This document shows positions 14,228 through 28,228 of a stretch of 64,000 bases of DNA, in pieces; position 1 is the stretch's first letter, and each line of letters begins with the position of its first letter. A program made the position numbers and the translations under genes. Source of the DNA: an uncultured delta proteobacterium (GTDB lineage Bacteria; Desulfobacterota; Binatia; Binatales; Binataceae); the NCBI GenBank assembly GCA_963836955.1, contig CAWILO010000004.1, forward strand, positions 152,916 through 216,915, given 5' to 3'. The notes beneath the pieces are model-generated. The model worked only from the letters and a program-made list of their open reading frames with translations. It had not been told where the DNA came from and did not search any database.

Positions 14228-15202
14228 TCAACCCGCGACTGGTTCGAGCCGATCGGCGCGGGCAGCTTCACCCTCGCTATGCGATAGAGAAGCCGGGCTC
14301 CTGCCCCTGCTATATTGCCGCGGCGAACAGCCCATCACCCTCTTGAAGGCTGTGCTGAAGGCGCTTTCGGATTCGTAGCCGAGCGAGAGCGCAATCACGG
14401 AAATGGGATCCTTGGAATTCACCAGCCTGTCCCCGGCCAACAGCATTCTCCAGCGCGTCAGGTATTCCATGGGTGACGTGCCAACCGTCTCTTTGAATTT
14501 CAGGGCAAAGGTCGATCGCGACATGCCCGCCCGCGTCGCCAGCTCCTCTACTGTCCAGCGATGCGCCGGATCGTCATGCATTGAACTGATTGCCGCGCTC
14601 ATCTGTTTATCCGCCAGGGCGAAGAGCCACCCAACTCCTCCTCTCAACCCTTCCGCCAGATGCAGCCGCAGGGCCTGCACCAGCATCATGTAGGCTATCT
14701 GTTGTGCGACCAGAAAGCTGCCCGGCTGCCGCTCGCGCAGCTCCTCCATCATCCGCTCCAGCGACCAGCGCATCGCCGCCTTGTCCGATTCTTTCCGGAT
14801 ATGCACGATCGGCGGCAGCATCCCCAACAGGATGCCGGCATGCTTGCCGGTAAGAGCGAAGTGTCCGCCGACAATAAAGCAATCCCCGCCTCCATTGAAC
14901 GTGGCGACGCCACTATCTCGCCTGGCCGATAAAATCGTTTGGTAGTCGATAGGAGTCAGACTTAGATCGGTTGCAAGGCGAAATGGCGACCCACTCGCGA
15001 GGATAAAGCAGTCTCCCGCCTCCAGCCGTACCGCGTCGGGAACGCCCTCCACCGACAGCCAGCCCTGGCCAGAAACCAGCGCGTAGCATTTGATGCCTTC
15101 ATGCTGGGGGAACTGGACGGACAACTGCCCTCCCACATCAAAGCCACCCGACGAATAACTGCGCGGCTTCAGCAGCGACAGCACATCTGAAAGTGGATCC
15201 AT
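14228..15202 (-). CDS. AraC-family transcriptional regulator with N-terminal cupin-like sensor domain
   Basis: C-terminal double HTH (RWTVEELATRAGMSRSTFALKFKETVGTSPMEYLTRWR). 324 aa. Confidence 0.85.
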   Translation of the reverse strand: MDPLSDVLSLLKPRSYSSGGFDVGGQLSVQFPQHEGIKCYALVSGQGWLSVEGVPDAVRLEAGDCFILASGSPFRLATDLSLTPIDYQTILSARRDSGVATFNGGGDCFIVGGHFALTGKHAGILLGMLPPIVHIRKESDKAAMRWSLERMMEELRERQPGSFLVAQQIAYMMLVQALRLHLAEGLRGGVGWLFALADKQMSAAISSMHDDPAHRWTVEELATRAGMSRSTFALKFKETVGTSPMEYLTRWRMLLAGDRLVNSKDPISVIALSLGYESESAFSTAFKRVMGCSPRQYSRGRSPASLSHSEGEAARADRLEPVAG

Positions 15203-15216
15203 GGCTCTCTTTCCAA

Positions 15217-16200
15217 CTATGAGTTCACGTGCTCAGCGAGGGATGCAAGCCGCGCTATCAGCCCTACCGCATTGTCCCGGTAAATGCGCTCGCGATCCTT
15301 CTCGCTGAAAAACTCGCTCGATTCGAGCTGCTGATTGGTACCTAGGACTACCGAGTCAGGGGCCCAGGGCCAATCGCTCCCATAGACAATATGCGAAGTG
15401 TCGGAAATCTGTAGCAACGATGAGAGCGTGTGCTTCGATCCGGCTAAAGCTGTGTCGTAATACAGCCTGCGCAGGTAAGACATCGCGTCTCCTTTAATCG
15501 CAGGCTCTCGCGCGATTGCGCCGCCAACCCTCGTGATCCTTTCGGCCAAGATTGGCAGCGCGCCACCATTGTGCGGAACGATAATTCGAATGTCCGGGCA
15601 CCTCTCGAGCGTTCCGCTGAAAATCAGGTTCGTCACCGCACGCGTAGTATCGAATGGGAACTCGATCATCGGCCGCGCATAGCCCATTGCACAGTCCTTC
15701 CAGCAACTAGGCGAGGTGGGATGAATGAAGATCACCGTTTTGCGGCGATTCAGCTCATCGAAGATCGGATCGAACTTCTTATCACCTGGATAGGTGCCTC
15801 CAGCATTTGTCTTGAGTGCTATTCCGTCCGCGTGAAGGACATCGATCGCATAGGCTAGCTCTTCGAGCGATCCCTCAACGTCAGGCATCGGTAGTTCAGC
15901 GAAGAGTCCGAAACGTGTCGGAAATTTCGCGACGGTGTCAGCCCCCGACTCATTGACCCTCCGAGCAAGTCGTCTGCCGGCTGCGTCGTCGCCGTAATGC
16001 ACCCCCGGCGACGAAATCGATAGCACTCCGGTAGCGATTCCAAGCTTGTCGTAGGTCTCCAACGCTCTTTCAGGACTCCATTCCGGGTAACCTCGCATAC
16101 CGTCAGGATGGACAATCCCCGCTCCACGCAGTTCATCCGCGTAGCCGGGAGGCAGGTAGTGTGCATGTACATCAATCTTGCCAGTAAGGTCTGATTTCAT
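15217..16200 (-). CDS. amidohydrolase-2 family (ACMSD-like decarboxylase/hydratase)
   Basis: Start at MKSDLTGKIDVHAHYLPP (metal-binding HxH). Conserved HPTSP and DxD blocks. The ORF track's N-terminal extension is rejected. Confidence 0.8.
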   Translation of the reverse strand: MKSDLTGKIDVHAHYLPPGYADELRGAGIVHPDGMRGYPEWSPERALETYDKLGIATGVLSISSPGVHYGDDAAGRRLARRVNESGADTVAKFPTRFGLFAELPMPDVEGSLEELAYAIDVLHADGIALKTNAGGTYPGDKKFDPIFDELNRRKTVIFIHPTSPSCWKDCAMGYARPMIEFPFDTTRAVTNLIFSGTLERCPDIRIIVPHNGGALPILAERITRVGGAIAREPAIKGDAMSYLRRLYYDTALAGSKHTLSSLLQISDTSHIVYGSDWPWAPDSVVLGTNQQLESSEFFSEKDRERIYRDNAVGLIARLASLAEHVNS

Positions 16201-16220
16201 AGTCACTAATCCAATTAATC

Positions 16221-16286
16221 CAGTGGGGCGGGCCGCCGTGCCCAGTGGGGCGGGCCGCCGTGCCCAGTGGGGCGGGCCGCCGTGCC
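16221..16286. repeat. perfect 3 x 22-bp direct tandem repeat (CAGTGGGGCGGGCCGCCGTGCC) in divergent promoter region
   Basis: Read directly. Three identical head-to-tail copies lie between the amidohydrolase start (16200, -) and the epimerase start (16425, +). Confidence 0.9.
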
Positions 16287-16424
16287 CGCCGAATGTGCGA
16301 GCATCATCCCGGACGATCACGAAGATAATACGGACTCTACAGCATAGATTGTATTGCCTCCAGCGCTTATCTTGACAATAACGCGGCCGCACACGCGGTC
16401 ATGAAACGAAGTTAAGGAGAAATC

Positions 16425-17309
16425 GTGATGCGTGTCTTCGTCACTGGTGCCACAGGATTTATCGGCGCTGCCCTTGTCCACGAGCTAATCAACGCCGGCC
16501 ATCAGGTGCTCGGTCTTGCGCGCTCAGATGCGGGCGCCAAATCGCTGGTCGCCGCGGGCGCGCAAGTGCATCGCGGCGATCTTGATGACCTCGAAAGCCT
16601 GCGCAGTGGAGCAGCCATATCGGATGGCGTGATTCACCTCGCCTTCAATCACGACTTCTCGAAGTACGTCGAGAACTGTCAGGCAGACAGGCATGCTATC
16701 GAGGCGCTCGGCTCGGTGCTCGTTGGATCAGACCGGCCGCTGGTCGTTACCTCGGGCACCGCGGTGGCCTTCGTTCCGGGCCGCGTCGCAACCGAAGACG
16801 ATCCGCCCGTGCCCAGCTCGATGATGCCGCGCAGCGCTTCGGAAGAAGCTGCTACCGAGATGGTATCGCGGGGCGTGCGCGCGACGGCGATGCGCCTGCC
16901 GCAGGTCCACAACCGGCTCAAGCATGGCCTCATCACTCCCCTGATCGAGATAGCCCGCGCGAAGGGCGTCTCGGCGTACGTCGGCGACGGGCGCAACCGA
17001 TGGCCCGCGGCTCACTTGCTCGATACCGCGCGGCTATACCGGCTGGCGCTCGAAAAGGGCCTTGCAGGAGAACGCTTTAACGCGGTCGCCGAAGAAGGCG
17101 TGCCGCTGCGGGAAATCGCTGAAGCAGTAGGCCGGCGCATCAACGTGCCGGTCGTCTCAAAAACCCCCGAAGAGGCCTCCGAACATTTCGGCTGGCTCGC
17201 GTTCTTCGTGGGTAACGACGCTCCTGCCTCAAGCGCGAGAACGCAGGAACGCCTGGGATGGCGCCCAACGCAAACCGGCCTCATCGCCGACCTCGAGCAT
17301 CCAGAGTAA
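16425..17309 (+). CDS. NAD(P)-dependent epimerase/dehydratase family (atypical SDR, NmrA-like)
   Basis: RBS AAGGAGA upstream. VFVTGATGFIGAALV Rossmann motif. 294 aa. Confidence 0.8.
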   Translation: MMRVFVTGATGFIGAALVHELINAGHQVLGLARSDAGAKSLVAAGAQVHRGDLDDLESLRSGAAISDGVIHLAFNHDFSKYVENCQADRHAIEALGSVLVGSDRPLVVTSGTAVAFVPGRVATEDDPPVPSSMMPRSASEEAATEMVSRGVRATAMRLPQVHNRLKHGLITPLIEIARAKGVSAYVGDGRNRWPAAHLLDTARLYRLALEKGLAGERFNAVAEEGVPLREIAEAVGRRINVPVVSKTPEEASEHFGWLAFFVGNDAPASSARTQERLGWRPTQTGLIADLEHPE

Positions 17310-17401
17310 TTCGAAGGCCACAACAGATACGATACAAGGCCTGAACGGACAGCGACCCACGGCGACCGCGCAACGCTCCAGCGGTCGTTAAGAATCAGGC
17401 T

Positions 17402-17911
17402 TCACACACCTGCCCGCCGCCGGCTTGAGGCTTCTGTCTTATGCAAATAGCTCGTAAACCCATCGCCCGGCGGCGCGATCGAGTTTTGCATCATGATCAA
17501 ACTGATTTGCCCCCGATGGTATTCGCCATGAACTGTCACGTGCGTCAGCATTTCTTCCCGTGACATGCGGCCCGGCAAGCCATCGGTAAATGTAAAGTCG
17601 ATACGCTCGCCCAACCGTGCTTCATCCAGAAGCGATACATAGTTGATATACCACTGATCGTTGGTCTTGATCGCCGCCGACAATTCTTCCAGCGATGGCG
17701 CCTGGCCTGCGTTGGGCGAGGTGTATCCGTGCTCAGTTCCCGTCAAGTTCGCAGCGAAGATCCGGTCGACAGCATAAGTGTGGTTGAGGACTCTGACGGC
17801 GATCTCCTTTGCAGCAGAGGCATCGTCAAATTGTCGCATTGCCGTAAGAATCTCTTCGTTGGCCTTTGCCTTGTAGCTGAAGACCCGTTCTAGCGTGCTG
17901 ACTTGATCCAT
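17402..17911 (-). CDS. DinB/YfiT-like damage-inducible family protein
   Basis: HGEYHRGQ metal-binding motif near the C-terminus. 169 aa. Confidence 0.8.
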   Translation of the reverse strand: MDQVSTLERVFSYKAKANEEILTAMRQFDDASAAKEIAVRVLNHTYAVDRIFAANLTGTEHGYTSPNAGQAPSLEELSAAIKTNDQWYINYVSLLDEARLGERIDFTFTDGLPGRMSREEMLTHVTVHGEYHRGQISLIMMQNSIAPPGDGFTSYLHKTEASSRRRAGV

Positions 17912-17954
17912 CTTCTTTCTCCCGATTGAGATAATAGCGAACTCGCCCTCTTAG

Positions 17955-18105
17955 GAGGCTCTGCGTAACCGGCCCGGCCGTCTGTCTCCTCGCCTGTTAG
18001 GGCGAGAATGAAGGTGCGGGTCCTTGTGCAGCGCGCTCTTTTCCGCGCGATTCAGGATTCTGCCTCCGCTCTGAACACGCACGCCCGGGTTACCCAAAGC
18101 TCTGC
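17955..18105 (+). repeat. copy A of ~175-bp structured intergenic repeat (MITE/REP-like)
   Basis: About 85% identical to the reverse complement of 37936..38112. Shares the internal hairpin CTCGCC(C)TGTTAGGGCGAG and the GAAGGTG(C/A)GGGTCCTTGT block. Confidence 0.6.
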
Positions 18106-18123
18106 TCTAAGGGATCATTTCCA

Positions 18124-18906
18124 TCACACTGATTGCGAAGGCTTCCTCGCGGTCACGGTGCGCGCAGGAGGAAACGTCCAGAAACTGAGACCGGAGATTT
18201 CCACATCGATCATATCCGACTTGCGCAACTCGTCGGCGTAGAGGTCGGCGCCATGGAGGTCGGAAATCGCCACCTGGCCGCCTTGCTTGAGGGTGCGCAC
18301 GATTTCACGGATGGCTTCGCGGCGTCCTTCGCCGCTGGTAATGTTGTGGATGGCGAAGTGTGCGACGGTGGCGTCGAAACTGCCGTCGGCGAAGGGCATT
18401 TTGCGCATGTCGCCGTCATCAACGCTGACTCGCTGCGCGACTCCCTCCAGCGCGGCATTTCTTAGCGTGGCTTCACGCGAATTGTCCGACTGCTGCCACT
18501 GCGACCACAGATCGATGCCTACCGCGCGACCTCGCGGCACCAGCTTTGCCGCGGCGATGAGCAGGAGCCCGTGCCCACAACCGACATCGAGCACGGTTTC
18601 GTCTCCGCGGAGCTTCAAGCGCGCCAGGATACGGTCGCGTGCGTGGAGTTTACCGAAGCGACTGCTGGCGAACATGAGAGTCGCGAGGATCAAAAAGCAA
18701 AAGCCAGAAATTTGAAGCGTGTAAGCCAGGCCGAGGTGCCGGCTCGAAGTCCATACGAGAACGAAACCAATGATCGCTCCCGCGAGGCCGAGGACGAACA
18801 TCGCGTAAACGGCTGCACCCGCATCGAGACCATAGTCCGGCGCTTGTCTGCTCATGACCCTGCTACCTGCTTGTGTGGACATCGTCGTGACTTGCGTTTT
18901 CATCAT
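18124..18906 (-). CDS. membrane-anchored class I SAM-dependent methyltransferase
   Basis: Two N-terminal TM helices, then VLDVGCGHGLL motif I and a DxHG-containing fold. 260 aa. Confidence 0.7.
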   Translation of the reverse strand: MMKTQVTTMSTQAGSRVMSRQAPDYGLDAGAAVYAMFVLGLAGAIIGFVLVWTSSRHLGLAYTLQISGFCFLILATLMFASSRFGKLHARDRILARLKLRGDETVLDVGCGHGLLLIAAAKLVPRGRAVGIDLWSQWQQSDNSREATLRNAALEGVAQRVSVDDGDMRKMPFADGSFDATVAHFAIHNITSGEGRREAIREIVRTLKQGGQVAISDLHGADLYADELRKSDMIDVEISGLSFWTFPPARTVTARKPSQSV

Positions 18907-18962
18907 CGATAAAATACAAGTGATCGCTCACAATTGTAAACTCGCATTCCGAGGCTCGTGCG

Positions 18963-19589
18963 ATGGCGCAAAAACCGCAAACAAACCCCAGAAAATCCGC
19001 CTCTCAAGAGCGATCGCGTCTAACCGTCGATGCCCTTCTCGAAGCGACTGCTCGCATTCTGATGAAAGAAGGTTATGACCGGACGAGCACCAACCGGATC
19101 GCCGAGCTGGCCGGCGTCAGTATCGGCTCGCTCTACCAGTACTTCCCGAGCAAGGAGGCGCTGGTAGCGGCTGTTATTGACCGTCATACACAAGAAATTT
19201 CCGGGGTGACGCGCAAGGCCCTGCTCAAGGCGGCTGCGCTCCCGCTCGAGGCCGCGGCGCGCGAATTCGTTTCAGTTGCAATCGACGCTCACCGCGTCAA
19301 TCCCAAGCTGCATGGCGTCCTTGCGGAACAGATCCCGCGCGTCGGGCGGCTCGAAAACATCGAGGCAAATATCCGAGACGGTTATGCACTGGTCCGGGGC
19401 TATCTCGAGGCGCATCGCGATGAGATCGACGTCGCCGACCTCGATCTCGCGGCCTTCGTCCTGGTGACTGTCGTGGAGGCGCTGACCCACGCAGCAGTCC
19501 TGCGCCGCCCAGACATCCTCACCGGCGACAAAGCAAGACACTTTGTGGACGACGTAACCCGCCTGGTAGTCCGCTACCTGAAAGCCTAG
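18963..19589 (+). CDS. TetR/AcrR family transcriptional regulator
   Basis: N-terminal HTH (GYDRTSTNRIAELAGVSIGSLYQYFPSKEAL). Divergent from the methyltransferase gene. Confidence 0.85.
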   Translation: MAQKPQTNPRKSASQERSRLTVDALLEATARILMKEGYDRTSTNRIAELAGVSIGSLYQYFPSKEALVAAVIDRHTQEISGVTRKALLKAAALPLEAAAREFVSVAIDAHRVNPKLHGVLAEQIPRVGRLENIEANIRDGYALVRGYLEAHRDEIDVADLDLAAFVLVTVVEALTHAAVLRRPDILTGDKARHFVDDVTRLVVRYLKA

Positions 19590-19724
19590 GTCCCGCCAAC
19601 GCCCCTTCAGCAAAGGCCAACAATTCGCCCGCTCGCGCTGACCGTTTGTGTCCGCCATTTGTCGGTCGCCGTTGCTCTGGTAAACCCATTTCGACGATTG
19701 AGTTTTGAATAAAACGGAAATCGC

Positions 19725-20159
19725 TTGGCTCCCTTAAATCCGCCGATAAAGTTGCTCGAACGCACCCGCTGGAAAGATCGGGACACGTTCGCGAGTCTCA
19801 TCAAGGCCAATCTCGGCAAAATAAAAGCTCGCCAACTAATCATTTCTGCCGAGCACGTTCCGGGGTTGATCGACAAGATAGCAGATCACCTTGACGACAC
19901 TATGGAACCCGGAGCGGAGTTTCAGTTGGATGCATACCAACCACCGCGCGAAACAACGAAGAGGAAGCGCAAACCTTCATCTAGGGTCCCTAGGGGGACA
20001 GCAAAGTTATGGAAACAACTTGTTGCCAGCGAGGAACAAGCGCGCATTGAAATACGCGTTTTCACAAAAGGGAAGGCCTTCACACTCTTTTTCGAGCCGA
20101 TCAAAGCGGACGATGAACTCGAAAACGCGTTCTGGAAGGACGAGTTCGGAGACGGATGA
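19725..20159 (+). CDS. hypothetical protein (first gene of low-GC islet operon)
   Basis: 144-aa ORF in a ~50% GC stretch, tightly followed by the paralog array. No family recognised and no obvious SD. Confidence 0.4.
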   Translation: MAPLNPPIKLLERTRWKDRDTFASLIKANLGKIKARQLIISAEHVPGLIDKIADHLDDTMEPGAEFQLDAYQPPRETTKRKRKPSSRVPRGTAKLWKQLVASEEQARIEIRVFTKGKAFTLFFEPIKADDELENAFWKDEFGDG

Positions 20160-20170
20160 ATCGTAGGTCG

Positions 20171-20536
20171 ATGAATCTTAGCCACGCAGCCGCGCTCGCG
20201 CTTGTGGGCTGGTACTTGATGGTGCCGCCGATGGCGCATAAAGAAGACTGGCAACTAGGCGGTCCTCGTGGGCCGGAAAGAGCCCCGTTGAGCAAATGGT
20301 TTACCTACGATTGGTTTGACACCGCTGACGCATGTACGAAGGCGCGCGATTCGCTCATGGCGAGGGCGTCATCCAATGCCCTCAATGACTATCATCGATG
20401 GCTGGCTGGTCGTGCCCCATCGGACGACCTACTTGGCGAATGGGACAGTACATACAGCACCGTCCTTGCGCTCAATGACGCCTACGGCCGGTCGCTGCGC
20501 ATTGCGACCGACGATCCTAGGCTCAAGGGAAAGTAG
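20171..20536 (+). CDS. small secreted protein, paralog 1 of tandem array
   Basis: MNLSHAAALALVGWYLMVPP hydrophobic leader. C-terminal ...IATDDPRLKGK shared with paralogs 2 and 3. Stop TAG lies 1 nt before the next ATG (AAGTAGGATGAA junction, repeated at each gene boundary). Confidence 0.5.
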   Translation: MNLSHAAALALVGWYLMVPPMAHKEDWQLGGPRGPERAPLSKWFTYDWFDTADACTKARDSLMARASSNALNDYHRWLAGRAPSDDLLGEWDSTYSTVLALNDAYGRSLRIATDDPRLKGK

Positions 20537-20537
20537 G

Positions 20538-20909
20538 ATGAATCTCCGCCACGCCGCCGCGCTCGCGCTCGCAGGCTGGTATCTTGTCACTCCCCATGCT
20601 TTGCCGTCCTCACGTGAACCAAATCTCTCTTTACCGCTATCACAATGGTCGCGGTTCGGACCCGTGCCGTCGAAAAGTGATTGCGAAGCCAGACTTTCGG
20701 CGTCGATGCAAAAGAACGATGATCCGACGATTCGCGAGAAGCTCTTTAAGGAGCAGCTGCCAAGCGTACGTGCTGAATTGCGGAGTATGTCGCCGAACCA
20801 GAAAATGCCCGACAGTTACTACGACAAAGCATACTTTGATGATTTACATCGTTACTTAAAACTTTCGCAGTGCATCGCAAGCGACGATCCGCGCCTCAAG
20901 GAAAAGTAG
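20538..20909 (+). CDS. small secreted protein, paralog 2 of tandem array
   Basis: MNLRHAAALALAGWYLV leader. Two Cys (SKSDCEAR, SQCIASDDPRLKEK). The same junction sequence leads into paralog 3. Confidence 0.5.
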   Translation: MNLRHAAALALAGWYLVTPHALPSSREPNLSLPLSQWSRFGPVPSKSDCEARLSASMQKNDDPTIREKLFKEQLPSVRAELRSMSPNQKMPDSYYDKAYFDDLHRYLKLSQCIASDDPRLKEK

Positions 20910-20968
20910 GATGAACCTACGCGCTGCCGCGCTCGCGCTCGTGGGCTGGTATCTGATGTCGCCCCTAG

Positions 20969-22143
20969 GGAAGCTCTGCACAGGTCTTAACTGGGCCGCT
21001 ATTTGAGATGTAAGTGAGCACTTTCAGGAAGGAGAGGCGACAGTGCGGTAGGTTGTTGGCCGCTCGGAGCGGCCAGCCACATTGCTATTCTCGCCGGTCC
21101 GGGTCACAGGGAACACCTCGCTCCGGCCGGGAGCAGTTGGCGGCGCAGTTGGTAGAGATTAGCCAGTGCGAACATGGTCTGCGCCCGCGCCAGATTCTTG
21201 GCCAAGCCGCGATATCTCACTTTGGTGAAGCCCCACAACTGCTTGACCACGCGGAAGGCATGCTCGCCGCAGGCGCGAGTGCGCGAACGCGCCCGATTGA
21301 TCATGCGCCAGCGTTCGCTCAACGGCCGCCAGGCAGTGGGACGGCGATTGATTCGATAATGTATCCCCCAGCTTTCAAGGAACTCTCGGTCGTCTTCTTT
21401 CCAGTACGCCTGATCGCCGAACACCGCGCGCTCCTCTCCATGCAAAAGCTCCGGCAGCTGAGTGACATCGGCGACCGCGGCATCGGTCGCTTTTACGGTG
21501 TGAACGATACCGCGCCGGTCGGCGCCGATGTGCAACTTCATCCCGAAATGCCAGTTCTTGCCCTTGCGCGTCTGCTTCATCTCGGGGTCGCGCTTCGCGC
21601 TGGCGTTTTTGGTGGAACTGGGCGCCGCGATGATGGTCGCATCCACGATGGTCCCCGAGCGCAGCAAAAGGCCGCGCGCTTCGAGCAAGCCGCCAATCGC
21701 GTCGAAGATTGCACTGGTCAAACCGTGCTGCTCCAGCAGATGGCGAAAGCGCAGGATGGTCGTCTCATCCGGCACCACGTCGTCGCCCAACTCCACTCGC
21801 GCGAAGCGCCGCATCGACTCGCTGTCGTAGATCGCGTCTTCCGCCTGCGGGTCGGAGAGATTGAACCATTGCTGCAGAAAGTAGATGCGCAGCATCTTCT
21901 CAAGCCCCAGCGGCTGGCGGCCGTTGCCGGCTTTGGGATAATGAGGCTCGATCAGCCTAAGCAGCCGCGCCCACGAGATTACCGCATCCATCTCGGCCAG
22001 AAACCGCTCGCGCCGGGTGACCTTGCCCTTCGCGCTCCAGGCCATCGAAGCAAACGTCCGCTGACTACCCATCACCACACCTCCCCATCCACCGATTCGA
22101 CCTTTCCTTTCTACACGAATCGACAAACTTGTGCAGAGCTTCC
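20969..22143 (-). mobile_element. IS5-family (IS5 subgroup) insertion sequence, 1175 bp, apparently intact
   Basis: Imperfect terminal inverted repeats GGAAGCTCTGCACAGG (left) and GGAAGCTCTGCACAAG (right, revcomp). Flanked by 4-bp direct duplication CTAG (20965-20968 and 22144-22147). Single transposase gene inside. Confidence 0.85.
21104..22072 (-). CDS. IS5-family DDE transposase (InsH-like)
   Basis: 322 aa from MGSQRTFASMAWSAKGKVTRRERFLAEMDAVISW... The blocks EPHYPKAGNGRQP, HLLEQHGL, DATIIAAPSSTKN, RDPEMKQTRKGKNWHFGMKLHIG and LANLY are near-identical to E. coli IS5 InsH. Confidence 0.9.
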   Translation of the reverse strand: MGSQRTFASMAWSAKGKVTRRERFLAEMDAVISWARLLRLIEPHYPKAGNGRQPLGLEKMLRIYFLQQWFNLSDPQAEDAIYDSESMRRFARVELGDDVVPDETTILRFRHLLEQHGLTSAIFDAIGGLLEARGLLLRSGTIVDATIIAAPSSTKNASAKRDPEMKQTRKGKNWHFGMKLHIGADRRGIVHTVKATDAAVADVTQLPELLHGEERAVFGDQAYWKEDDREFLESWGIHYRINRRPTAWRPLSERWRMINRARSRTRACGEHAFRVVKQLWGFTKVRYRGLAKNLARAQTMFALANLYQLRRQLLPAGARCSL

Positions 22144-22390
22144 CTAGTTGATCACAATGCGAACAAAATAGTCTACGAAGCGCCGCTAACATATTGGGAA
22201 CACGAGGGGAGTTTCGATACAGCGACCGAATGCGAGCGCAAGCGGAAGGATGATGTTCGCGTGATGAGTAACCTCAGAACGAATAGCACGGATCGCAGTC
22301 CAGGCTCTGACCTCGGCCTCAACTCGGCTCTGGCGGCTAAATGCGTCGCGTCTGACGATCCCCGGCTGAAGGAAAAATAACTACAAAGCT

Positions 22391-23152
22391 ATGGCGAAGT
22401 TCGAAGAACGATTCGGTCTTGTGGTTGGAGTGGATGAAGCGCGGGAGCGCTTCGTGAATCGCGCCCACTACGTGATCTTTACGAAGTTTGTCCTCACAGA
22501 TCAGCACTCCAGATACGTTGACGCCGTAACGTTTGGTCTGGGCAGACCCGTACAGTTCGATGCGTCACTCAGAGAAATCGTCGGGCGAGATTTTCACGAC
22601 AATCTGAAGGCAATCGAGTACGTTCGTCGGGCAGCAAACAATAAAGCCGCCCTTGATCAGATCGTCGCTCAGATTCTGCGGGAATCAGAAGTCGATCTAG
22701 GTGTTCGGTGGGAAGACGGGGTGTTCGTAAAAGCGGGAGCGCCTCTGCTCGACGACAAGCTGGTAAGAGATGTGCTCGGATGGGCGCGCGAGAAAGAATA
22801 TGAAATCGTGCTCGCCCCCTTTGAGAAGGGTCTGCGGCACTTCCTTGAATCCACAAAACGTCCTGAAGTTCTTTCAGATGTTGTTACCGATATGTACGAA
22901 GCGCTTGAAGCCGTCGCGAAAATCGTCACAGAGCGAAATGACGATCTGTCCAGCAACCGTGAGCGATTCATCAAGGCCGTTCGCGCGCCCGACGCGTACA
23001 AAAAAATCCTGAAAGAATACATCGATTACGGATGCGAGTTTCGTCATGCTGCCGACGCTGCGGGACAAAAGCCCGCGCTCTCACCTGAAGAAGTTGAATC
23101 GTTCATCTATCTGACTGGCGTTTTTGTGCGCTTTGCGATGAGGACGCGCTGA
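22391..23152 (+). CDS. hypothetical protein (last gene of low-GC islet)
   Basis: 253-aa ORF starting 10 nt after the paralog 3 stop. Low-GC codon usage. No family confidently recognised. Confidence 0.5.
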   Translation: MAKFEERFGLVVGVDEARERFVNRAHYVIFTKFVLTDQHSRYVDAVTFGLGRPVQFDASLREIVGRDFHDNLKAIEYVRRAANNKAALDQIVAQILRESEVDLGVRWEDGVFVKAGAPLLDDKLVRDVLGWAREKEYEIVLAPFEKGLRHFLESTKRPEVLSDVVTDMYEALEAVAKIVTERNDDLSSNRERFIKAVRAPDAYKKILKEYIDYGCEFRHAADAAGQKPALSPEEVESFIYLTGVFVRFAMRTR

Positions 23153-23322
23153 AGTTCTGTTCCCTCTCCAGGGCTGCCGCTGTTTGCGACCAACATTTCG
23201 GGCGCGGCGTCAAAGCCGCACGCGCAGAGGGAGTTGCACCTGATCGGAGACGATTCGCTGCCACCATGTTCGATGGGTGTCCTGACGACACTGCGGCCGT
23301 GAACAGCGTGTGTCCGCGTTTT

Positions 23323-23351
23323 TTGACACCTCGCGGGCTCGGTTGTATAGT
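23323..23351 (+). promoter_or_regulatory. near-consensus sigma70 promoter (TTGACA-17 bp-TATAGT) for thiamine operon
   Basis: Read directly. TTGACA at 23323-23328, 17-nt spacer, TATAGT at 23346-23351. Sits immediately upstream of the TPP riboswitch. Confidence 0.55.
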
Positions 23352-23354
23352 CGG

Positions 23355-23450
23355 ATCAGGCTGGGGGTGTGCTTTATACGCACTGAGAGCTCCCTCGGGA
23401 GAACCCCTCGAACCTGATCCGGGTAATGCCGGCGTAGGGAAGCCAACGGC
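23355..23450 (+). promoter_or_regulatory. TPP (thiamine pyrophosphate) riboswitch / THI element
   Basis: GGCUGGGGGUG...CUGAGAG...ACCC..GAACCUGAUCCGGGUAAUGCCGGCGUAGGGAAG matches the THI-box consensus. It is followed by the hairpin CCGCTTCCCC-ACACCA-GGGAAGCGG overlapping the thiS RBS region. Confidence 0.85.
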
Positions 23451-23506
23451 GCAACGTTCGCGGCTGCGCCTGGGCCGCTTCCCCACACCAGGGAAGCGGC
23501 TCAATA

Positions 23507-23725
23507 ATGCCCGACTCCATCGCAACCTCAATCACTCTCAACGGCGACCCGTACCCGCTCCACGCCGACACTCCCCTGACCGCCCTGCTGGAGCGCCTCA
23601 ACATGCGCCGCGGCCGCGTGGCGGTCGAAATCAACCGCGAGATCGTGCCCAAGGCCAGTTACGATGCGACCATCGTAAGGGCGGGCGACCAGGTCGAAAT
23701 AATCAACTTCGTCGGCGGCGGATGA
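23507..23725 (+). CDS. thiS: sulfur carrier protein ThiS
   Basis: 72 aa ending in GG. Sits between the TPP riboswitch and thiG. Confidence 0.85.
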   Translation: MPDSIATSITLNGDPYPLHADTPLTALLERLNMRRGRVAVEINREIVPKASYDATIVRAGDQVEIINFVGGG

Positions 23726-23767
23726 TTCTTTTAGCGCCGCTGCCGCGGGAATGGACACCGAAAAAAA

Positions 23768-24544
23768 ATGCAAGACACTCCTTTTGAATTGGGCGGAAAG
23801 AAATTCAAGTCGCGGCTGATCGTCGGCACCGGCAAGTACCGCGACTTCGCCGAAACCAGGGCCGCGGTCGAAGAAAGCGGCGCCGAAATCGTGACCGTCG
23901 CGGTGCGCCGCGTGAATATCACCGATCGCGGCAAGGAAAATCTGCTCGACTACCTCGACCCCAGGCGCTACCAGATTCTCCCCAACACCGCCGGATGCTT
24001 CACCGCCGAGGAGGCGATTCGCACCTGCCGCCTCGCGCGCGAGGTCGGCGTCGGCGATCTCGTGAAGCTCGAGGTCATCGGCGACAAGCAGACTCTGTTC
24101 CCCGATGTCGCCGCGACCCTCGAAGCGGCGCGCGTGCTGGTCAAGGAAGGTTTCAAGGTGATGCCGTATATCACCGACGATCCCGTTACTTGTCTCCGGC
24201 TCCAGGAGCTGGGATGCGTAGCCGTGATGCCGCTGGCGGCGCCGATCGGCTCCGGCCTCGGAATCCGCAATCCATTCAACCTCGCGATCATCATCGAGCA
24301 GGCGAAAGTACCGGTGATCGTCGATGCGGGCGTCGGCACCGCCTCAGACGCCGCCGAGGCGATGGAGCTGGGATGCGACGGCGTTCTGATGAACACCGCG
24401 ATCGCTGGCGCGAAGGATCCAATCGCGATGGCGCGAGCGATGAAGCTCGCGGTCGAAGCCGGCCGGCTCGCATATCGCGCCGGCCGAATCGAGCGCAAGC
24501 TCTACGCCACCGCGTCGAGCCCGCTCACGGGCTTGATCGGGTAG
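23768..24544 (+). CDS. thiG: thiazole synthase
   Basis: 258 aa. [24 protein letters not shown] start and conserved ThiG barrel blocks ([14 protein letters not shown]). Confidence 0.95.
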
Positions 24545-24552
24545 GGCGCGCC

Positions 24553-25230
24553 TTGTCGTCGCGCCCACGCGTCAGCTTCCGCCTCTACCTGATAACCGAT
24601 CGCCACGTCGTGAAGAACGGCAACCTCGTCTCCGCTTGCGAGGCGGCGCTGTCAGCCGCGCCGCCCGGAACCGTCGCGTTGCAGCTCCGCGAAAAAGACT
24701 TACCCGCGCGCGAACTCTACGAGCTGGCGCTCCGCCTTCGTGATACTTGCACGCGCACCGGCGCGCCGCTGATCGTGAACGAACGCGTCGACGTCGCAAT
24801 CGCAGCAGGCGCCGACGGCGTTCATCTTCCGTTCAACTCGATTGGCGTCAGCATGGCGCGCAAGCTGCTCGGCCCCGACAGACTTGTCGGAGTGTCGAGC
24901 CACTCGCCGCCCGACGTCGCGGGTCAATCGCGCGAGGGCGCCGACTTCGCCGTATTCGGTCCGATCTTCGATCCGCTGTCGAAGCCCGCCACCGGGCCCG
25001 CGTGGGGTCCAAGCGGACTCAGCGCAGCGTGCGCCGCGGGCGCGATTCCAGTCTTCGCGCTCGGCGGAATCACGGCGGATCGCACGCGCGACATGTTCGC
25101 GTCTCCCGAGCTGGCTGCGCGACCCGCAGGAGTCGCGTCGATCGGCGCGATCTTTGCCGCCGACTCGCCCGCTCTCGCTACTGCTGCGATGCTGTCGGCG
25201 CTGAACGCGTCGCGGACTCGGCAGCAATGA
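24553..25230 (+). CDS. thiE: thiamine-phosphate synthase
   Basis: TTG start giving LSSRPRVSFRLYLITDR, the typical ThiE N-terminus. The upstream part of ORF 23995..25230 overlaps thiG and is rejected. Confidence 0.8.
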   Translation: MSSRPRVSFRLYLITDRHVVKNGNLVSACEAALSAAPPGTVALQLREKDLPARELYELALRLRDTCTRTGAPLIVNERVDVAIAAGADGVHLPFNSIGVSMARKLLGPDRLVGVSSHSPPDVAGQSREGADFAVFGPIFDPLSKPATGPAWGPSGLSAACAAGAIPVFALGGITADRTRDMFASPELAARPAGVASIGAIFAADSPALATAAMLSALNASRTRQQ

Positions 25231-26089
25231 CCGACTGCGCGGCGTCGAGAAGAGTCTCCGGACGCGGCAGCTCCCGATAATAGGGTGACGTAAAAGTCCA
25301 TCGCACGACGCCATCGCGATCGAGCCCAAAAAACGCGGGAATCGCGTTGTCGGGCTCTCCATTGCGATGGTGCTGTACGAGACCGAGCGGCCCCAGGATC
25401 GATTCGTTGTTGTCGCTCAGCAGCGGGATCTTCGTGCGGAGAAATCCAGCGAGCATCTTCGATCGTTCGACCGGATCCGCGCTGATCGCGATGATATCAA
25501 CACCAGCTCGGCGAAAATCGTCCGCATGCGCGGTCAGCTCGGCAAGCTCGAACCGCGAGAATGGGTCGAAGTCCCCGCGATATATGAAAACCAAAGTTGC
25601 TCGAGCGTCGGATGGCACCGGTCCGCGATGGATCGAGTCGTTTTGATCGGTGAGCGCGAAGCTCGGGAAGCGTTGTCCCACCGCGAGCTTCAAAGTGAAC
25701 GGTGGATTCCGCGTCACGCGCATCGTGTAGCTGACGAATCGCCCGCCGCCTGCTCCTACGACGATGCATGCCAGGAATGCGAACAAGCCGAACCCGAGTT
25801 TGGCGTGGGGTGACGCGAGTCCGAGTGCGAGTCGCAATCCCGCGATCGAAAGCAAGATTGCGGCGGCCGCGATCGCGAACGCGGGCCACGGAATTCGTTC
25901 GTGGATACCCATCCACGGCACCGACCAGAACGACACCAGTACGTATTCGTAGAGTCCGAAGCCGGATGCTATCAGGATGACGGCGCCGATTGCCCGGATT
26001 GGTTGAAAGGGCGGGGTAACCCAGGGCTCGTCGTAAACCTCCAGCGCGACCTCGTCCGGGCGCGGCTCCTCCGGTTCCGATGTGGCCAT
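25178..26089 (-). CDS. membrane-anchored redoxin/AhpC-TSA-like domain protein
   Basis: N-terminal TM helices and a C-terminal thioredoxin-like fold (TLVFIYRGDFDPFSRFELAEL). The peroxidatic Cys position reads Ser, so it may be non-catalytic. Confidence 0.55.
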   Translation of the reverse strand: MATSEPEEPRPDEVALEVYDEPWVTPPFQPIRAIGAVILIASGFGLYEYVLVSFWSVPWMGIHERIPWPAFAIAAAAILLSIAGLRLALGLASPHAKLGFGLFAFLACIVVGAGGGRFVSYTMRVTRNPPFTLKLAVGQRFPSFALTDQNDSIHRGPVPSDARATLVFIYRGDFDPFSRFELAELTAHADDFRRAGVDIIAISADPVERSKMLAGFLRTKIPLLSDNNESILGPLGLVQHHRNGEPDNAIPAFFGLDRDGVVRWTFTSPYYRELPRPETLLDAAQSVIAAESATRSAPTASQQ

Positions 26090-26724
26090 CAGTTGAGCAT
26101 CTTCACTTTCAACTCGTCGAAGGAAAGGAGGTCGACTCCCTCCTGCTGCAATTTTTCATTGAAGGTTGGTGATTCTTCTCCGACAACAGCGACAGCGTCC
26201 CTGACCAAATGGAGTTTCGGGCCGACGCCGGTGAGCGCACTGATCTCGCGCTCGACGCATGCCTCGGTGTACACGCCGTACATCACGATGTGCTCGAACG
26301 GTCGGAGTACGAGCCGCAGGATGGCGCTAAGGTGTTCGTTGTTGGCGAGCTTCTCGAACTGCTGGCGGCGAAAGATGATTTCTCCGTCATGCTCGAGGAC
26401 CTTCTTAATCTCGTCAGGAGTGTATTCGCGACTTTCCAGAGTCAGCGGATTGAGCGGTTTGGTTTCGTCGATTTTTTCCTGGCCGGGGGTGCCGGCCATG
26501 CAATGATCGGGGTACGGTCCGCCCCAACTCTTCAACTGCGGATCGCCCGGAACGTGGCAATCGACCGAGCAGACTATGCGCACCTTCTGATCGCGGGCGA
26601 GATCGGTAATTGCCTTCCACACCGGCACGATCTTCTCCGCGCCCTCGATGTGGAATTTGCCGTCGTGCAGGATGAAGTCGCGCTGCGTGTTGATGTCGTA
26701 GAAGATTGTGGTTTCGGCTTTCAT
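26089..26724 (-). CDS. isochorismatase-family cysteine hydrolase
   Basis: 211 aa. Conserved RIVCSVDCH... and the Cys-containing catalytic region. ATGA overlap with the downstream gene. Confidence 0.8.
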   Translation of the reverse strand: MKAETTIFYDINTQRDFILHDGKFHIEGAEKIVPVWKAITDLARDQKVRIVCSVDCHVPGDPQLKSWGGPYPDHCMAGTPGQEKIDETKPLNPLTLESREYTPDEIKKVLEHDGEIIFRRQQFEKLANNEHLSAILRLVLRPFEHIVMYGVYTEACVEREISALTGVGPKLHLVRDAVAVVGEESPTFNEKLQQEGVDLLSFDELKVKMLN

Positions 26725-26731
26725 AGTTTCA

Positions 26732-27646
26732 TCAGAAGTGTTCCGGCTCGTGTTGGCGGCGATTGTCGCATTCGAGCTGCAAGGTCAGGTGGTGGATATC
26801 GAACTTGGTCTGCAGCAGATGGCACATGTCGGCGAGCACTCGATCGCGATCCGCGTCCGCCGCGACTACCGCATGCGCGGAAAGCGCGATCTGCCGGGTG
26901 GTCAAGCACCAGACGTGCAGGTCGTGAACTTCCTGGGTGCCGCTAACGGCCAGCAGGTCGGTGCGCATTTCGTCGAGATCAATGTGTCGCGGCACCGATT
27001 CCATCAGGATGTCCACGCCCTCGCGCACCAGGCCCCATGAACCGTACAGCACCAGCCCTCCGATCAATATGCTCACGGCGGCGTCGGCCTGCATCCATCC
27101 GGTGAAATAATTCAGCGCCCCGGAAGCGAGCACGCCGATCGAACCAACTAGATCGGAAACCACGTGCACGAACACCGAGCGGACCGCCATTCCTTGCTTG
27201 TGACTGTGCGAGTCGGTCGAGGTCATCCACGCGGAAAAGGTGTTGACGCAGATTCCGACAATCGCGATAGCCATCACGGGCAGCCCTGAAACCGGCCGCG
27301 GATGTCGCAACCGTTCGGCAGCTTCGATCCAGATGAAGACCACCAGCACCCACAGAAACAGGCCGTTGAGCAACGCGCCCAGGATTTCCGCGCGAAGGTA
27401 GCCATAGGTTTTCCCCGAGGATGCGGGCCGCGTCGATACCCACAGGGTCAGCATCCCGAGGCACAAAGCCGCGATGTCGGTGAGCATGTGGACTGCGTCG
27501 GACAGCAGCGCCAGGCTGCCAGTGAGGTAGCCTCCGACCAGCTCGGTCAGGAGATAAACCGAGGTGACGCCGAGGACGATAAGGAGGCGGCGCTGATCCG
27601 AACCCGCGGTTGCATGGGGTTCGTGATTGTCCATCGAGGTCCGCAT
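26732..27646 (-). CDS. cation diffusion facilitator family transporter (CzcD-like)
   Basis: Six TM helices. HxxxD motifs (SDAVHMLTD, HVVSDLVGS). C-terminal cytoplasmic domain. Confidence 0.9.
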   Translation of the reverse strand: MRTSMDNHEPHATAGSDQRRLLIVLGVTSVYLLTELVGGYLTGSLALLSDAVHMLTDIAALCLGMLTLWVSTRPASSGKTYGYLRAEILGALLNGLFLWVLVVFIWIEAAERLRHPRPVSGLPVMAIAIVGICVNTFSAWMTSTDSHSHKQGMAVRSVFVHVVSDLVGSIGVLASGALNYFTGWMQADAAVSILIGGLVLYGSWGLVREGVDILMESVPRHIDLDEMRTDLLAVSGTQEVHDLHVWCLTTRQIALSAHAVVAADADRDRVLADMCHLLQTKFDIHHLTLQLECDNRRQHEPEHF

Positions 27647-27649
27647 TGC

Positions 27650-28171
27650 TTAATCATAGTGTATTAGCGAGAAGCAGTTGACCGGCGCGAGGCGCTCGCG
27701 GCCCTTGAGCGCGTCGAGCTCGACCACGAACGCGCATCCGATCACGTTGCCACCGATCTTTTTGACCAGCTGCAGCGCGGCGGCCGCGGTCCCCCCGGTC
27801 GCGAGCAGATCGTCAACCAGCAGCACGCGACCTTTGCCGGCAAGCGCGTCCTGATGCATCTGCAAGGACGCGCTGCCGTATTCGAGATCGTACGCCTGAT
27901 CCACATATTGGTAAGGGAGCTTGCCGGGTTTGCGTGCAATCGCAAGTCCCACGCCCAACCGATACGCGACGGGAGCGCCGACGATGAAGCCGCGCGACTC
28001 GATTCCGACCACGGCATCAACTTTACCGAGGTAAGGCTGCGCCAACTGATCGACCACCGCGGCGAAACCGCGCGCGTCGGCAATCAGAGGCGTGAAGTCT
28101 CTGAACATTATTCCGGGCTTGGGGAAGTCGGGAACGTTACGAATAAGTTTTTTGATTTCTTCGGCAGTCAT
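27650..28171 (-). CDS. apt: adenine phosphoribosyltransferase
   Basis: Start at MTAEEIKKLIRNVPDFPKPGIMFRD. PRPP-binding motif VLLVDDLLATGGT. Confidence 0.9.
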   Translation of the reverse strand: MTAEEIKKLIRNVPDFPKPGIMFRDFTPLIADARGFAAVVDQLAQPYLGKVDAVVGIESRGFIVGAPVAYRLGVGLAIARKPGKLPYQYVDQAYDLEYGSASLQMHQDALAGKGRVLLVDDLLATGGTAAAALQLVKKIGGNVIGCAFVVELDALKGRERLAPVNCFSLIHYD

Positions 28172-28228
28172 CCTTGAATTCCATCGCACCGGCGTCTCAT
28201 GCAGTCTCGCGTGCGGTGGTCAAAGATA

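What the first reader, a model, noticed from the sequence alone, without database searches (positions are those of the whole stretch)
20171..22380. Tandem array of three paralogous small secreted proteins with conserved leader and Cys-containing C-terminal motif
The three ORFs start MNL(S/R)(H/-)AAALAL(V/A)GWYL(M/V), a short positively charged n-region plus hydrophobic h-region. They have divergent ~70-90 aa cores sharing a (A/L)PL(S/T)xW...F(D/G)(T/P)..(D/S/T)xC(T/E)(K/A/R)R block. All end with C(I/V)A(S/T)DDPRLK(E/G)K; paralog 1 has Ile in place of the second Cys. Conserved termini with rapidly diverging cores, in head-to-tail translationally coupled copies, suggests a diversifying family of periplasmic/secreted proteins. 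Examples would be immunity-like, adaptor or bacteriocin-like proteins. I do not recognise it as a described family.
Basis: seen in the sequence. Interest (0 to 1): 0.7.

Follow-up and report, generated by a model that had tools for sequence, protein, structure and literature searches.

The report
Unnamed small-protein family array, IS-disrupted

Summary
P1 (20171-20536) and P2 (20538-20909) are intact. P3 is split after codon 19 by a 1175-bp IS5-family element (20969-22143; perfect 14-bp inverted repeats, CTAG duplication). Removing the element restores a 96-aa ORF. A 99%-identical public contig lacks it.

The genes belong to a large family absent from Pfam, NCBIfam, PADLOC, PDB sequences and the searched literature. 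It has 4823 representatives at 50% identity. The motif-based genome scan returned almost only Binataceae MAGs, several loci per genome, with no conserved neighbour gene.

Only MxxRHAAALAL(V) precedes the domain. Export is likely but unproven: distant multi-domain relatives carry canonical signal peptides before WYLMxPP, and the cysteine pair is conserved. However, no signal-peptidase site follows the hydrophobic run.

No toxin, bacteriocin or modification context exists. Function is unknown; I favour extracytoplasmic binding modules. Unexplained: synonymous sites of the leader are conserved across genomes.

The parts
20171..20536 (+). Paralogue P1, 121 aa. An alternative ATG at 20156 overlaps the stop of the upstream 144-aa ORF (ATGA). 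It has the leader MNLSHAAALALVGWYLMVPP, PLSKW, the first Cys and the DDPRLKGK tail. The second conserved Cys is Arg in this assembly.
   Evidence: HMM E 3e-28. L081 has Cys at this position.
20538..20909 (+). Paralogue P2, 123 aa. It is the only copy with every family-invariant residue (His5, GWYL, PLSQW, both Cys, DDPRLKEK). It belongs to a long-insert subfamily with LVTPH in place of LMVPP.
   Evidence: HMM E 7e-30. Orthologues at 70-79% identity. dN/dS 0.29 against the L001 orthologue. AF2 pLDDT 85.9.
20911..20968 (+). P3, 5' fragment: codons 1-19 and the first base of codon 20 (MNLRAAALALVGWYLMSPL). His5 is missing. The last four bases are the left CTAG target-site duplication (20965-20968).
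   Evidence: HMM E 2e-7.
20969..22143 (-). IS5-family insertion sequence, 1175 bp, with perfect 14-bp terminal inverted repeats GGAAGCTCTGCACA (20969-20982 and 22130-22143).
   Evidence: The element is absent from the 99%-identical contig L081.
21104..22072 (-). Transposase CDS of the IS. The first ATG inside the element gives about 322 aa. The 362-aa ORF listed from 22192 starts outside the IS.
   Evidence: NCBIfam NF033581 transpos_IS5_4, E 4.6e-99; Pfam DDE_Tnp_1 and DUF772.
22144..22147 (.). Right copy of the 4-bp CTAG target-site duplication.
22148..22380 (+). P3, 3' fragment. It begins with the last two bases of codon 20 and runs to the stop codon (VDHNANK...CVASDDPRLKEK*). Joined to the 5' fragment it gives an in-frame 96-aa protein.
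   Evidence: HMM E 6e-17. An intact orthologue, P0112, is 84% identical and colinear across the insertion point. AF2 pLDDT 87.6.

Best explanation
The locus is a three-copy tandem array of a lineage-specific family of small two-cysteine alpha/beta domain proteins. The family is very large and undescribed, and in the motif-based genome scan it is almost confined to Binataceae. One copy was recently knocked out by an IS5-family insertion.

Shown:
- Each protein is a single compact domain. Its first strand (GWYLMxPP) and last strand (C-I/V-A-S/T-D-D, followed by PRLK) are the conserved termini. Together with PLSxW and the strand before the first Cys they form the conserved sheet.
- The variable 'core' is a helical hairpin of variable length packed on that sheet.
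- A 12-13-residue, nearly invariant leader M-x-x-R-H-A-A-A-L-A-L-(V) precedes the domain. It is kept only at true N-termini.

Inferred:
- The proteins act outside the cytoplasm, in the periplasm or tethered to the inner membrane, with the two conserved Cys forming a disulfide.
- They serve as binding modules whose specificity lies in the variable helices, diversified by duplication.
- They are independent transcription units or short translationally coupled arrays. They are not parts of a toxin, bacteriocin or RiPP system.
For: Family:
- 479 hits, all 'hypothetical', with the named ones from Candidatus Binatus.
- 4823 representatives at 50% identity with E <= 1e-3, and 2619 with E <= 1e-10.
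- 326 confirmed stretches in species-representative genomes. 79 of the best 80 loci carry Binataceae-type titles, several loci per genome.
- No Pfam or NCBIfam match for P1-P3, no Pfam match for distant members, and no PADLOC or PDB sequence match.

Real coding genes: dN/dS is 0.29 for P2 against its orthologue. Conserved core residues have saturated synonymous sites.

Fold:
- AF2 gives pLDDT 85.9 / pTM 0.72 for P2 and 87.6 / 0.75 for P3.
- Strands lie at 13/14-18, 37-43 and 84-87 (P3) or 111-114 (P2).
- Residues 1-10 have pLDDT of about 50.

Domain boundary:
- Relatives with signal peptides (P0128, P0156, P0211) match the HMM only from position 7-15 onwards; 4 of 5 domain matches start at 13-15.
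- Second domains of genuine two-domain fusions lack the leader. One such cluster has 13 members from several sources.

Export:
- Canonical signal peptides sit directly before WYLMxPP in those relatives.
- 161 of 179 single-domain members have exactly 2 Cys, and 8 have 4.

No system context: no conserved neighbour across 80 loci.

IS.
Against: Export of the single-domain form is not demonstrated.
- The hydrophobic run A6-V18 includes the strand that the model places in the fold.
- No (-3,-1) signal-peptidase site follows it in P1-P3, and only 59 of 185 members have one.
- The best 19-residue Kyte-Doolittle mean is 1.0-1.3, below the usual 1.6 transmembrane threshold.
- SignalP or DeepTMHMM could not be run, and model coordinates could not be inspected to measure the Cys-Cys distance.

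Neither the fold nor ordinary Sec targeting explains the near-invariance of the leader (His5 in 183 of 185) or its conserved synonymous sites.
Confidence: 0.5

Rival explanations
1. The single-domain proteins are cytoplasmic small proteins. The 13-residue leader is not an export signal. It could be an N-terminal interaction, degron or metal-ligand segment, with His5 and the two Cys as possible ligands.
For: - The AF2 models use GWYLM as a core strand.
- The leader alone is too short for a Sec signal.
- No cleavage site follows the hydrophobic run, and 19-residue hydrophobicity is low.
- His5 is invariant in 183 of 185 members, which is unusual for a signal n-region.
Against: - The same domain follows canonical signal peptides in P0128, P0156 and P0211, and follows a TM segment plus Pro-rich linker in P0248.
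- The n-region is positively charged and is followed by a 13-residue hydrophobic run with Kyte-Doolittle mean 1.6-2.0.
- Cys occurs almost always in pairs.
- The signal-peptide-bearing relatives have no His before the domain.
Confidence: 0.22
2. The invariant leader, the DDPRLKEK tail, or both, are recognition tags for a dedicated sorting, processing or secretion machine encoded elsewhere in Binataceae genomes. This would resemble dispersed PEP-CTERM proteins and their exosortase. The family members would be its substrates.
For: - The leader is extremely conserved across proteins that are under 40% identical elsewhere.
- The leader is retained only at true N-termini.
- The genes are dispersed with no local partner.
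- G13 is invariant immediately before the domain, and an A-L-A motif lies three residues before W14. This is the same spacing as the AAA|GG-W and ALA|GSS-W cleavage sites of the signal-peptide-bearing relatives.
Against: - No candidate enzyme was identified.
- The tail motif DPRL is also present, in degenerate form, on internal domains of multi-domain proteins, so it behaves as part of the fold.
- Part of the leader's invariance may be a by-product of nucleotide-level constraint.
Confidence: 0.13
3. The array is a set of orphan immunity or inhibitor genes, for example against periplasm-acting interbacterial toxins or hydrolases, or it encodes bacteriocin- or RiPP-like precursors.
For: - Tandem, rapidly diverging small paralogues with a probable periplasmic location resemble orphan immunity arrays.
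- The block 19600-23200 has lower GC and carries an IS.
Against: - No toxin, Rhs, CDI, T6SS, ABC-exporter or modification gene is conserved next to any of 80 loci.
- About 70% of loci are singletons in ordinary chromosomal contexts.
- No hit in PADLOC, and only a non-significant PHROGs hit.
- The proteins are folded 85-125-aa domains, not leader-plus-core peptides.
Confidence: 0.1
4. The conserved ends are primarily DNA- or RNA-level elements, such as recombination anchors for cassette exchange or gene conversion, or a shared regulatory RNA site. The protein conservation would be secondary.
For: - Leader codons have position-specific synonymous conservation (entropy 0.5-0.9 bit), whereas equally conserved core residues show 1.8-2.4 bit.
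- Tandem and same-genome copies are slightly more alike at these sites: 0.20 and 0.25 against 0.31 between genomes.
Against: - Conservation starts exactly at the ATG and stops at the stop codon, with nothing in the flanks.
- No RNA structure exceeds shuffled controls and there is no covariation.
- Arg, Leu and Pro codons still vary synonymously, including among the three window copies.
- The conserved residues map to structural elements of a confident fold.
- No recombinase or reverse transcriptase is nearby.
Confidence: 0.05

Closest known systems
Lineage-specific expanded families of small exported proteins (the generic kind, for example the Myxococcus paralogous families in TIGRFAMs or the Borrelia Mlp lipoproteins; cited from memory as an analogy only)
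   Same: Many dispersed and tandem paralogues per genome. The N-terminal region is conserved, the body is divergent, the proteins are small, and there is no fixed operon partner.
   Different: There is no sequence, profile or fold relation to any of them. There is no lipobox. The conserved N-terminus is largely a strand of the mature fold plus an unusually short, nearly invariant leader.
Sec (SPase I) signal peptides
   Same: A positively charged n-region (MNLRH) is followed by a 13-residue hydrophobic run and then helix-breaking Pro-Pro.
   Different: There is no conserved -3/-1 cleavage motif after the run. The sequence is nearly invariant across thousands of proteins, whereas real signal peptides drift. 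The distal half of the run is a structural strand that, in relatives, lies after a separate canonical signal peptide.
Orphan immunity-gene arrays of polymorphic toxin systems (T6SS, CDI, Rhs)
   Same: Head-to-tail arrays of small, fast-diverging paralogues that may be periplasmic, with occasional IS insertions.
   Different: No toxin or effector, VgrG, PAAR or CdiB context exists in any locus. Most family members are singletons. There are no matches to known immunity families.
IS5-family insertion sequences (for the interrupting element)
   Same: A DDE transposase matches NCBIfam transpos_IS5_4 at E 4.6e-99. The element is about 1.2 kb, has short perfect terminal inverted repeats and a 4-bp CTAG target duplication.
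   Different: Nothing unusual. The element was not compared with ISfinder, so the exact IS name is unknown.

Membership tests
Unnamed WYLMxPP...PLSxW...C...C(I/V)ASDDPRL family (defined here by HMM/alignment A1) | A significant full-length match to the family profile. | tested here: met
   P1 3e-28, P2 7e-30, P3 fragments 2e-7 and 6e-17. The profile finds 4823 representatives.
Unnamed WYLMxPP...PLSxW...C...C(I/V)ASDDPRL family (defined here by HMM/alignment A1) | The invariant residues: leader RHAAALAL, G-W-Y-L, P-L-x-x-W, two Cys, and D-D-P-R-L. | tested here: inconclusive
   P2 has all of them. P1 has Arg for the second Cys in the window but Cys in the 99%-identical L081. P3 lacks His5 and is IS-disrupted.
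Sec/SPase I secreted protein | A charged n-region followed by a hydrophobic h-region of 7-15 residues. | tested here: met
   MNL(R/S)H, then AAALALVGWYLMV. The Kyte-Doolittle mean is 1.64-2.02.
Sec/SPase I secreted protein | A c-region with small residues at -3 and -1 and no Pro from -3 to +1. | tested here: not met
   No site lies 2-11 residues after the run in P1, P2 or P3. Only 59 of 185 family members have one under a permissive rule.
Sec/SPase I secreted protein | A positive call by a trained predictor (SignalP, DeepTMHMM or Phobius). | not testable with these tools
   No such predictor is available. The indirect evidence is canonical signal peptides in multi-domain relatives.
Toxin-immunity or bacteriocin locus | An adjacent toxin, effector, bacteriocin exporter or modification gene, or membership of a known immunity family. 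| tested here: not met
   No conserved neighbour in 80 loci. The flanking 144-aa and 253-aa ORFs have no significant family match (only weak sub-threshold hits for the 253-aa ORF). PADLOC, PHROGs and Pfam gave no significant hits.
RiPP precursor peptides | A conserved leader, a short variable core and a co-located maturation enzyme or transporter. | tested here: not met
   The proteins are confidently folded 85-125-aa domains. No co-located enzyme is present.
GutM / glucitol operon activator (the JGI name on homologue P0022) | A match to the Pfam GutM model. | tested here: not met
   No Pfam family at E <= 1 for P1-P3 or for distant members. The JGI label appears to be a spurious transfer.
IS5-family insertion sequence | A DDE transposase of the IS5 family. 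| tested here: met
   NF033581, E 4.6e-99, 331 bits against a cutoff of 140. PF01609, E 1.2e-22.
IS5-family insertion sequence | Terminal inverted repeats, a target-site duplication and a known empty site. | tested here: met
   The inverted repeats match 14/14, and the CTAG duplication is present. L081 lacks the element at exactly this point. The intact orthologue P0112 is colinear.

The most novel reading that the evidence does not exclude
The near-invariant 13-residue leader (M-x-x-R-H-A-A-A-L-A-L-V-G), conserved even at synonymous sites across dozens of Binataceae species, is the recognition element of a so far unknown lineage-specific system. That system could be a dedicated leader peptidase or sorting pathway acting at ALA|LVG-W or G|W, or a post-transcriptional regulator binding the first ~57 nt of every family mRNA. 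In either case thousands of small two-Cys proteins with a new fold would be its substrates or regulon.
Probability: 0.15. Interest if true: 0.75.

Novelty: new variant of a known kind. Interest (0 to 1): 0.42.

Why it matters
Binataceae are abundant, uncultured soil and peat bacteria. This family has at least 4800 clusters at 50% identity and several copies per genome. It has no Pfam or NCBIfam model, no solved relative and no convincing fold match, so it is a sizeable piece of unannotated sequence space that merits a family definition.

The finding also shows why "conserved termini, variable core" need not mean signal plus tag. Here the termini pair in the fold.

The invariant short leader, with its constrained synonymous sites, is a concrete and testable oddity. 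It could point to a lineage-specific targeting or regulatory mechanism.

In practical terms, public gene calls truncate or miss these genes. P2 is called as 67 aa, and P3 is not called at all.

Tried and rejected
- **Family libraries on P1-P3, the flanking ORFs and distant members.** Pfam, NCBIfam and PADLOC returned nothing for the family. PHROGs gave only one sub-threshold hit (E 0.027).
- **PDB sequence profile search.** Nothing.
- **Conserved-neighbour search over 80 loci.** Only local synteny groups and generic ADH and ABC families appeared.
- **Search of the window for sequences complementary to the leader or tail (sRNA idea).** Only chance GC-rich 11-12-mers.
- **Upstream k-mer enrichment.** Only generic AT-rich, promoter-like words.
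- **dN/dS among the three paralogues.** dS is saturated.
- **Extra homology searches with the signal-peptide-bearing relatives P0156 and P0128.** No informative hits.
- **Plasmid and phage collections, and a literature motif search.** No matches.
- **DGR, shufflon or integron-like cassette mechanisms.** Considered and rejected. No reverse transcriptase or recombinase is nearby, all copies face the same way, and conservation is confined to the coding sequence.
Full report
**1. What is in the sequence**

Between a TetR-type regulator gene (18963-19589) and the thiS-thiG-thiE operon lie five closely spaced + strand ORFs:
- an unassigned 144-aa ORF (19725-20159);
- three paralogues, P1-P3;
- an unassigned 253-aa ORF (22391-23152).

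P1 is 20171-20536 (121 aa) and P2 is 20538-20909 (123 aa). Both junctions read TAG-G-ATG.

The third copy starts at 20911 but runs for only 19 codons (MNLRAAALALVGWYLMSPL). It is then interrupted by a 1175-bp element (20969-22143). The element has these features:
- Perfect 14-bp terminal inverted repeats, GGAAGCTCTGCACA. These are the only two occurrences in the window.
- A 4-bp CTAG direct duplication (20965-68 and 22144-47).
- A minus-strand DDE transposase matching NCBIfam transpos_IS5_4 at E 4.6e-99.

Deleting the element and one CTAG joins 20911-20968 to 22148-22380 in frame. The result is a 96-aa protein with all family motifs.

Three results show the insertion is recent:
- The rejoined ORF is intact.
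- An 84%-identical intact orthologue (P0112) is colinear across the insertion point.
- A public contig 99% identical to window 14676-28546 (L081, ENA ERZ25039605 contig_53799) lacks the element at exactly this position.

**2. Is it more than chance, and is it coding?**

A family HMM matches P1 and P2 at about 1e-28 to 1e-30. It matches the two P3 fragments at 2e-7 and 6e-17.

P2 against its orthologue in L001 gives dN 0.175 and dS 0.60, a ratio of 0.29. This indicates purifying selection on a real protein.

Details that differ from the finding:
- P1 carries Arg, not Ile, at the second conserved Cys. L081 has Cys there.
- P3 lacks the near-invariant His5.

**3. The family**

A search with P2 returned 479 homologues. 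All are 'hypothetical', and the named ones come from Candidatus Binatus.

A 24-sequence profile scored against 1.84 billion representatives found 4823 proteins at E <= 1e-3 and 2619 at E <= 1e-10.

In species-representative genomes, 326 stretches were confirmed. Of the best 80 loci, 79 carry Binataceae-type titles: Binatus or Binataceae, plus bins labelled only uncultured (delta)proteobacterium that I take to be the same lineage. They come from 51 MAGs, with up to 7 copies seen in one genome. The scan used family-specific motifs, so it is biased towards this lineage.

The one contig labelled Acidiferrales (L030) is syntenic with Binataceae contigs. It is probably mis-binned.

About 70% of the loci hold a single copy. 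The rest hold 2-4 same-strand tandem copies, often 1-6 nt apart.

No neighbouring gene is conserved beyond local synteny.

The following gave no significant family match:
- Pfam and NCBIfam for P1-P3 and the flanking ORFs, and Pfam for distant members.
- PADLOC and PHROGs; the best PHROGs hit was E 0.027 to an unknown-function family.
- The PDB sequence profile search.
- The plasmid and phage collections.
- A full-text search for the motifs.

**4. Anatomy of the protein**

Invariant or near-invariant features are:
- M-x-x-R-H-A-A-A-L-A-L-x-G-W-Y-L-(M)-x-P-(P);
- A-P-L-S-x-W;
- (F/Y)-D-(S/T)-A-x-x-C;
- C-(I/V)-A-(S/T)-D-D-P-R-L-K.

The stretch between the two Cys varies in sequence and in length, so whole proteins run from 85 to about 150 aa.

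AlphaFold2 gives confident models for P2 (pLDDT 85.9, pTM 0.72) and for the IS-less P3 with a 69-sequence alignment (pLDDT 87.6, pTM 0.75). In both models:
- GWYLM (13/14-18) is a beta strand.
- The segment after PLSxW (37-43) is a strand leading into the helix that starts at the first Cys.
- C(I/V)AS is the last strand.
- Two to five helices lie between them.
- Residues 1-10 are low-confidence.

The simplest reading is that the conserved termini are the two ends of one sheet-forming scaffold, and the 'core' is a variable helical insert.

**5. Signal peptide or not?**

The three strongest points come from distant relatives.
- P0128, P0156 and P0211 are 2-3-domain proteins. Ordinary signal peptides (for example ...LFALNGSVALA|GSS-WYLIQP and ...PTLAAA|GG-WYLMRPP) directly precede the WYLMxPP strand. 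P0248 has a TM segment plus a Pro-rich linker instead.
- These relatives match the HMM only from position 7-15 onwards; 4 of the 5 domain matches start at 13-15.
- In genuine two-domain fusions, the second domain starts at (L/V)GWYLM without MNLRHAAALA. One such cluster has 13 members from several sources, including an NCBI Binatus MAG.

Hence the domain begins at G13/W14, it can live outside the cytoplasm, and MxxRHAAALAL(V) is an N-terminus-specific leader.

Consistent with export, 161 of 179 single-domain members have exactly two Cys and 8 have four.

Three points weigh against a canonical cleaved Sec signal:
- The leader alone is too short.
- The hydrophobic run includes the structural strand.
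- None of P1-P3, and only 59 of 185 members, has even a permissive -3/-1 site after it. The best 19-residue hydrophobicity is 1.0-1.3.

I therefore rate export as likely, about 65-70%, but unproven. The mode is open: uncleaved tether, unusual processing at ALA|LVG or G|W, or something else.

**6. An unexplained extra layer**

Across 95 full-length copies, leader codons are conserved at synonymous sites in a position-specific way:
- R4 is CGC in 65 of 79.
- H5 is CAC in 82 of 94.
- A7 is GCC in 70 of 82.
- A8 is GCG in 81 of 92.
- L9 is CTC in 81 of 89.
- G13 is GGC in 78 of 94.
- P19 is CCG in 76 of 87.

These positions have entropy of 0.5-0.9 bit. D88 (GAC), D89 (GAT) and L92 (CTC) in the tail show a similar effect. 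Equally conserved residues A32, P33, L34, S35 and P20 use codons freely, at 1.8-2.4 bit.

Nucleotide conservation begins exactly at the ATG and ends at the stop codon.

Tests so far:
- It is not a stable RNA structure.
- It is only slightly stronger within genomes than between them: 0.20 for tandem copies, 0.25 within genomes, 0.31 between genomes. Within-genome gene conversion alone therefore does not explain it.
- Selection for an unstructured 5' coding region, a shared regulator-binding site, or recombination between paralogues all remain possible.

**7. What it most likely is and does**

*Shown:* a tandem array of a huge, lineage-centred, undescribed family of small two-Cys alpha/beta domain proteins, with one copy recently inactivated by an IS5-family element.

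*Inferred:* extracytoplasmic binding modules with a conserved disulfide-stabilised scaffold and a variable helical specificity surface, diversified by duplication.

The immunity, bacteriocin and RiPP readings lack any contextual support.

In this strain the array looks partly decayed:
- P1 has Cys changed to Arg.
- P3 has lost His5 and carries the IS.
- Only P2 is canonical.

**8. Novelty and score**

The family itself is not described in any library or paper I could search, and it has no detectable fold relative. The kind of thing, a lineage-specific expanded family of small and probably exported proteins, is familiar.

The invariant leader with constrained synonymous sites is the one truly odd feature.

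Interest is moderate (0.42). The family is worth defining and the leader is worth a targeted test, but there is no mechanism yet.

Noticed in passing
window 20171-20230 and equivalents in L001-L080: Synonymous sites of leader codons 4-13 and 19, and of tail codons 88-92, are conserved position-specifically across 52 genomes (0.5-0.9 bit). Equally conserved core residues show 1.8-2.4 bit. Conservation starts exactly at the ATG. No RNA structure or covariation explains it.
   Followed up: partly
window 22485-22940 (inside the 253-aa ORF 22391-23152): The 99%-identical contig L081 lacks these 456 bp. This is an in-frame 152-codon difference with ACGA microhomology at the junction. It is either a real deletion polymorphism or an assembly collapse. 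The ORF has no significant family match in Pfam, NCBIfam, PADLOC, PHROGs, PDB or plasmids (only weak sub-threshold hits).
   Followed up: partly
L081 6255-6265 (equivalent to the empty IS site, window 20965/22147): The IS-free allele reads CCCCTGAGTTG instead of the expected CCCCTAGTTG. The one extra G frameshifts P3 exactly at the insertion point. This could be a consensus error from a mixed IS+/IS- population or a real lesion.
   Followed up: no
window 20497-20499 (P1 codon 109): The window has CGC (Arg) where L081 has TGC (Cys) at the family's near-invariant second Cys. This is a strain polymorphism or a sequencing error.
   Followed up: partly
window 19600-23200: The five co-directional ORFs (144 aa, P1-P3, 253 aa) form a lower-GC block, 0.52-0.58 against 0.61 for the window. 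The block sits between tetR and the thiS promoter and riboswitch. The 144-aa ORF stop overlaps an alternative P1 start (ATGA at 20156-20159). Neither flanking ORF has relatives in the other 80 loci.
   Followed up: partly
window 23323-23457: A near-consensus sigma-70-like promoter (TTGACA-17-TATAGT, 23323-23351) lies directly before a TPP riboswitch (RF00059, 77.6 bits, 23353-23457). Both are upstream of thiS-thiG-thiE.
   Followed up: yes
L081 5833-6204 (= window P2): The public gene call for P2 covers only its last 67 aa (P0012), although the full 123-aa ORF is intact and identical. P3 is not called at all. Members of this family are under-called in public annotation.
   Followed up: yes
protein P0032 (213 aa) and L035 6001-6609: Some 'two-domain' members are tandem genes fused by a 1-nt change in the A-rich junction. 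AAGGAAAAGTAGGATG becomes ...AAGGAAAGTAGGATG, which reads KESRM. Others (P0121, P0123, P0126, P0127) are genuine fusions whose second domain has lost the leader.
   Followed up: partly
L033 6865-6917: A stranded AAGGAAAAGTAG (KEK-stop) remnant sits directly before the ATG of a downstream copy, 52 nt after the real stop of the upstream gene. It looks like the scar of a deleted array member.
   Followed up: no
protein P0022 and locus L030: JGI names one homologue 'DNA-binding transcriptional regulator of glucitol operon'. This is not supported by Pfam. The single non-Binataceae locus (labelled Candidatus Acidiferrales) is syntenic with Binataceae contigs L008, L009, L014 and L021, which suggests a binning error.
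   Followed up: partly
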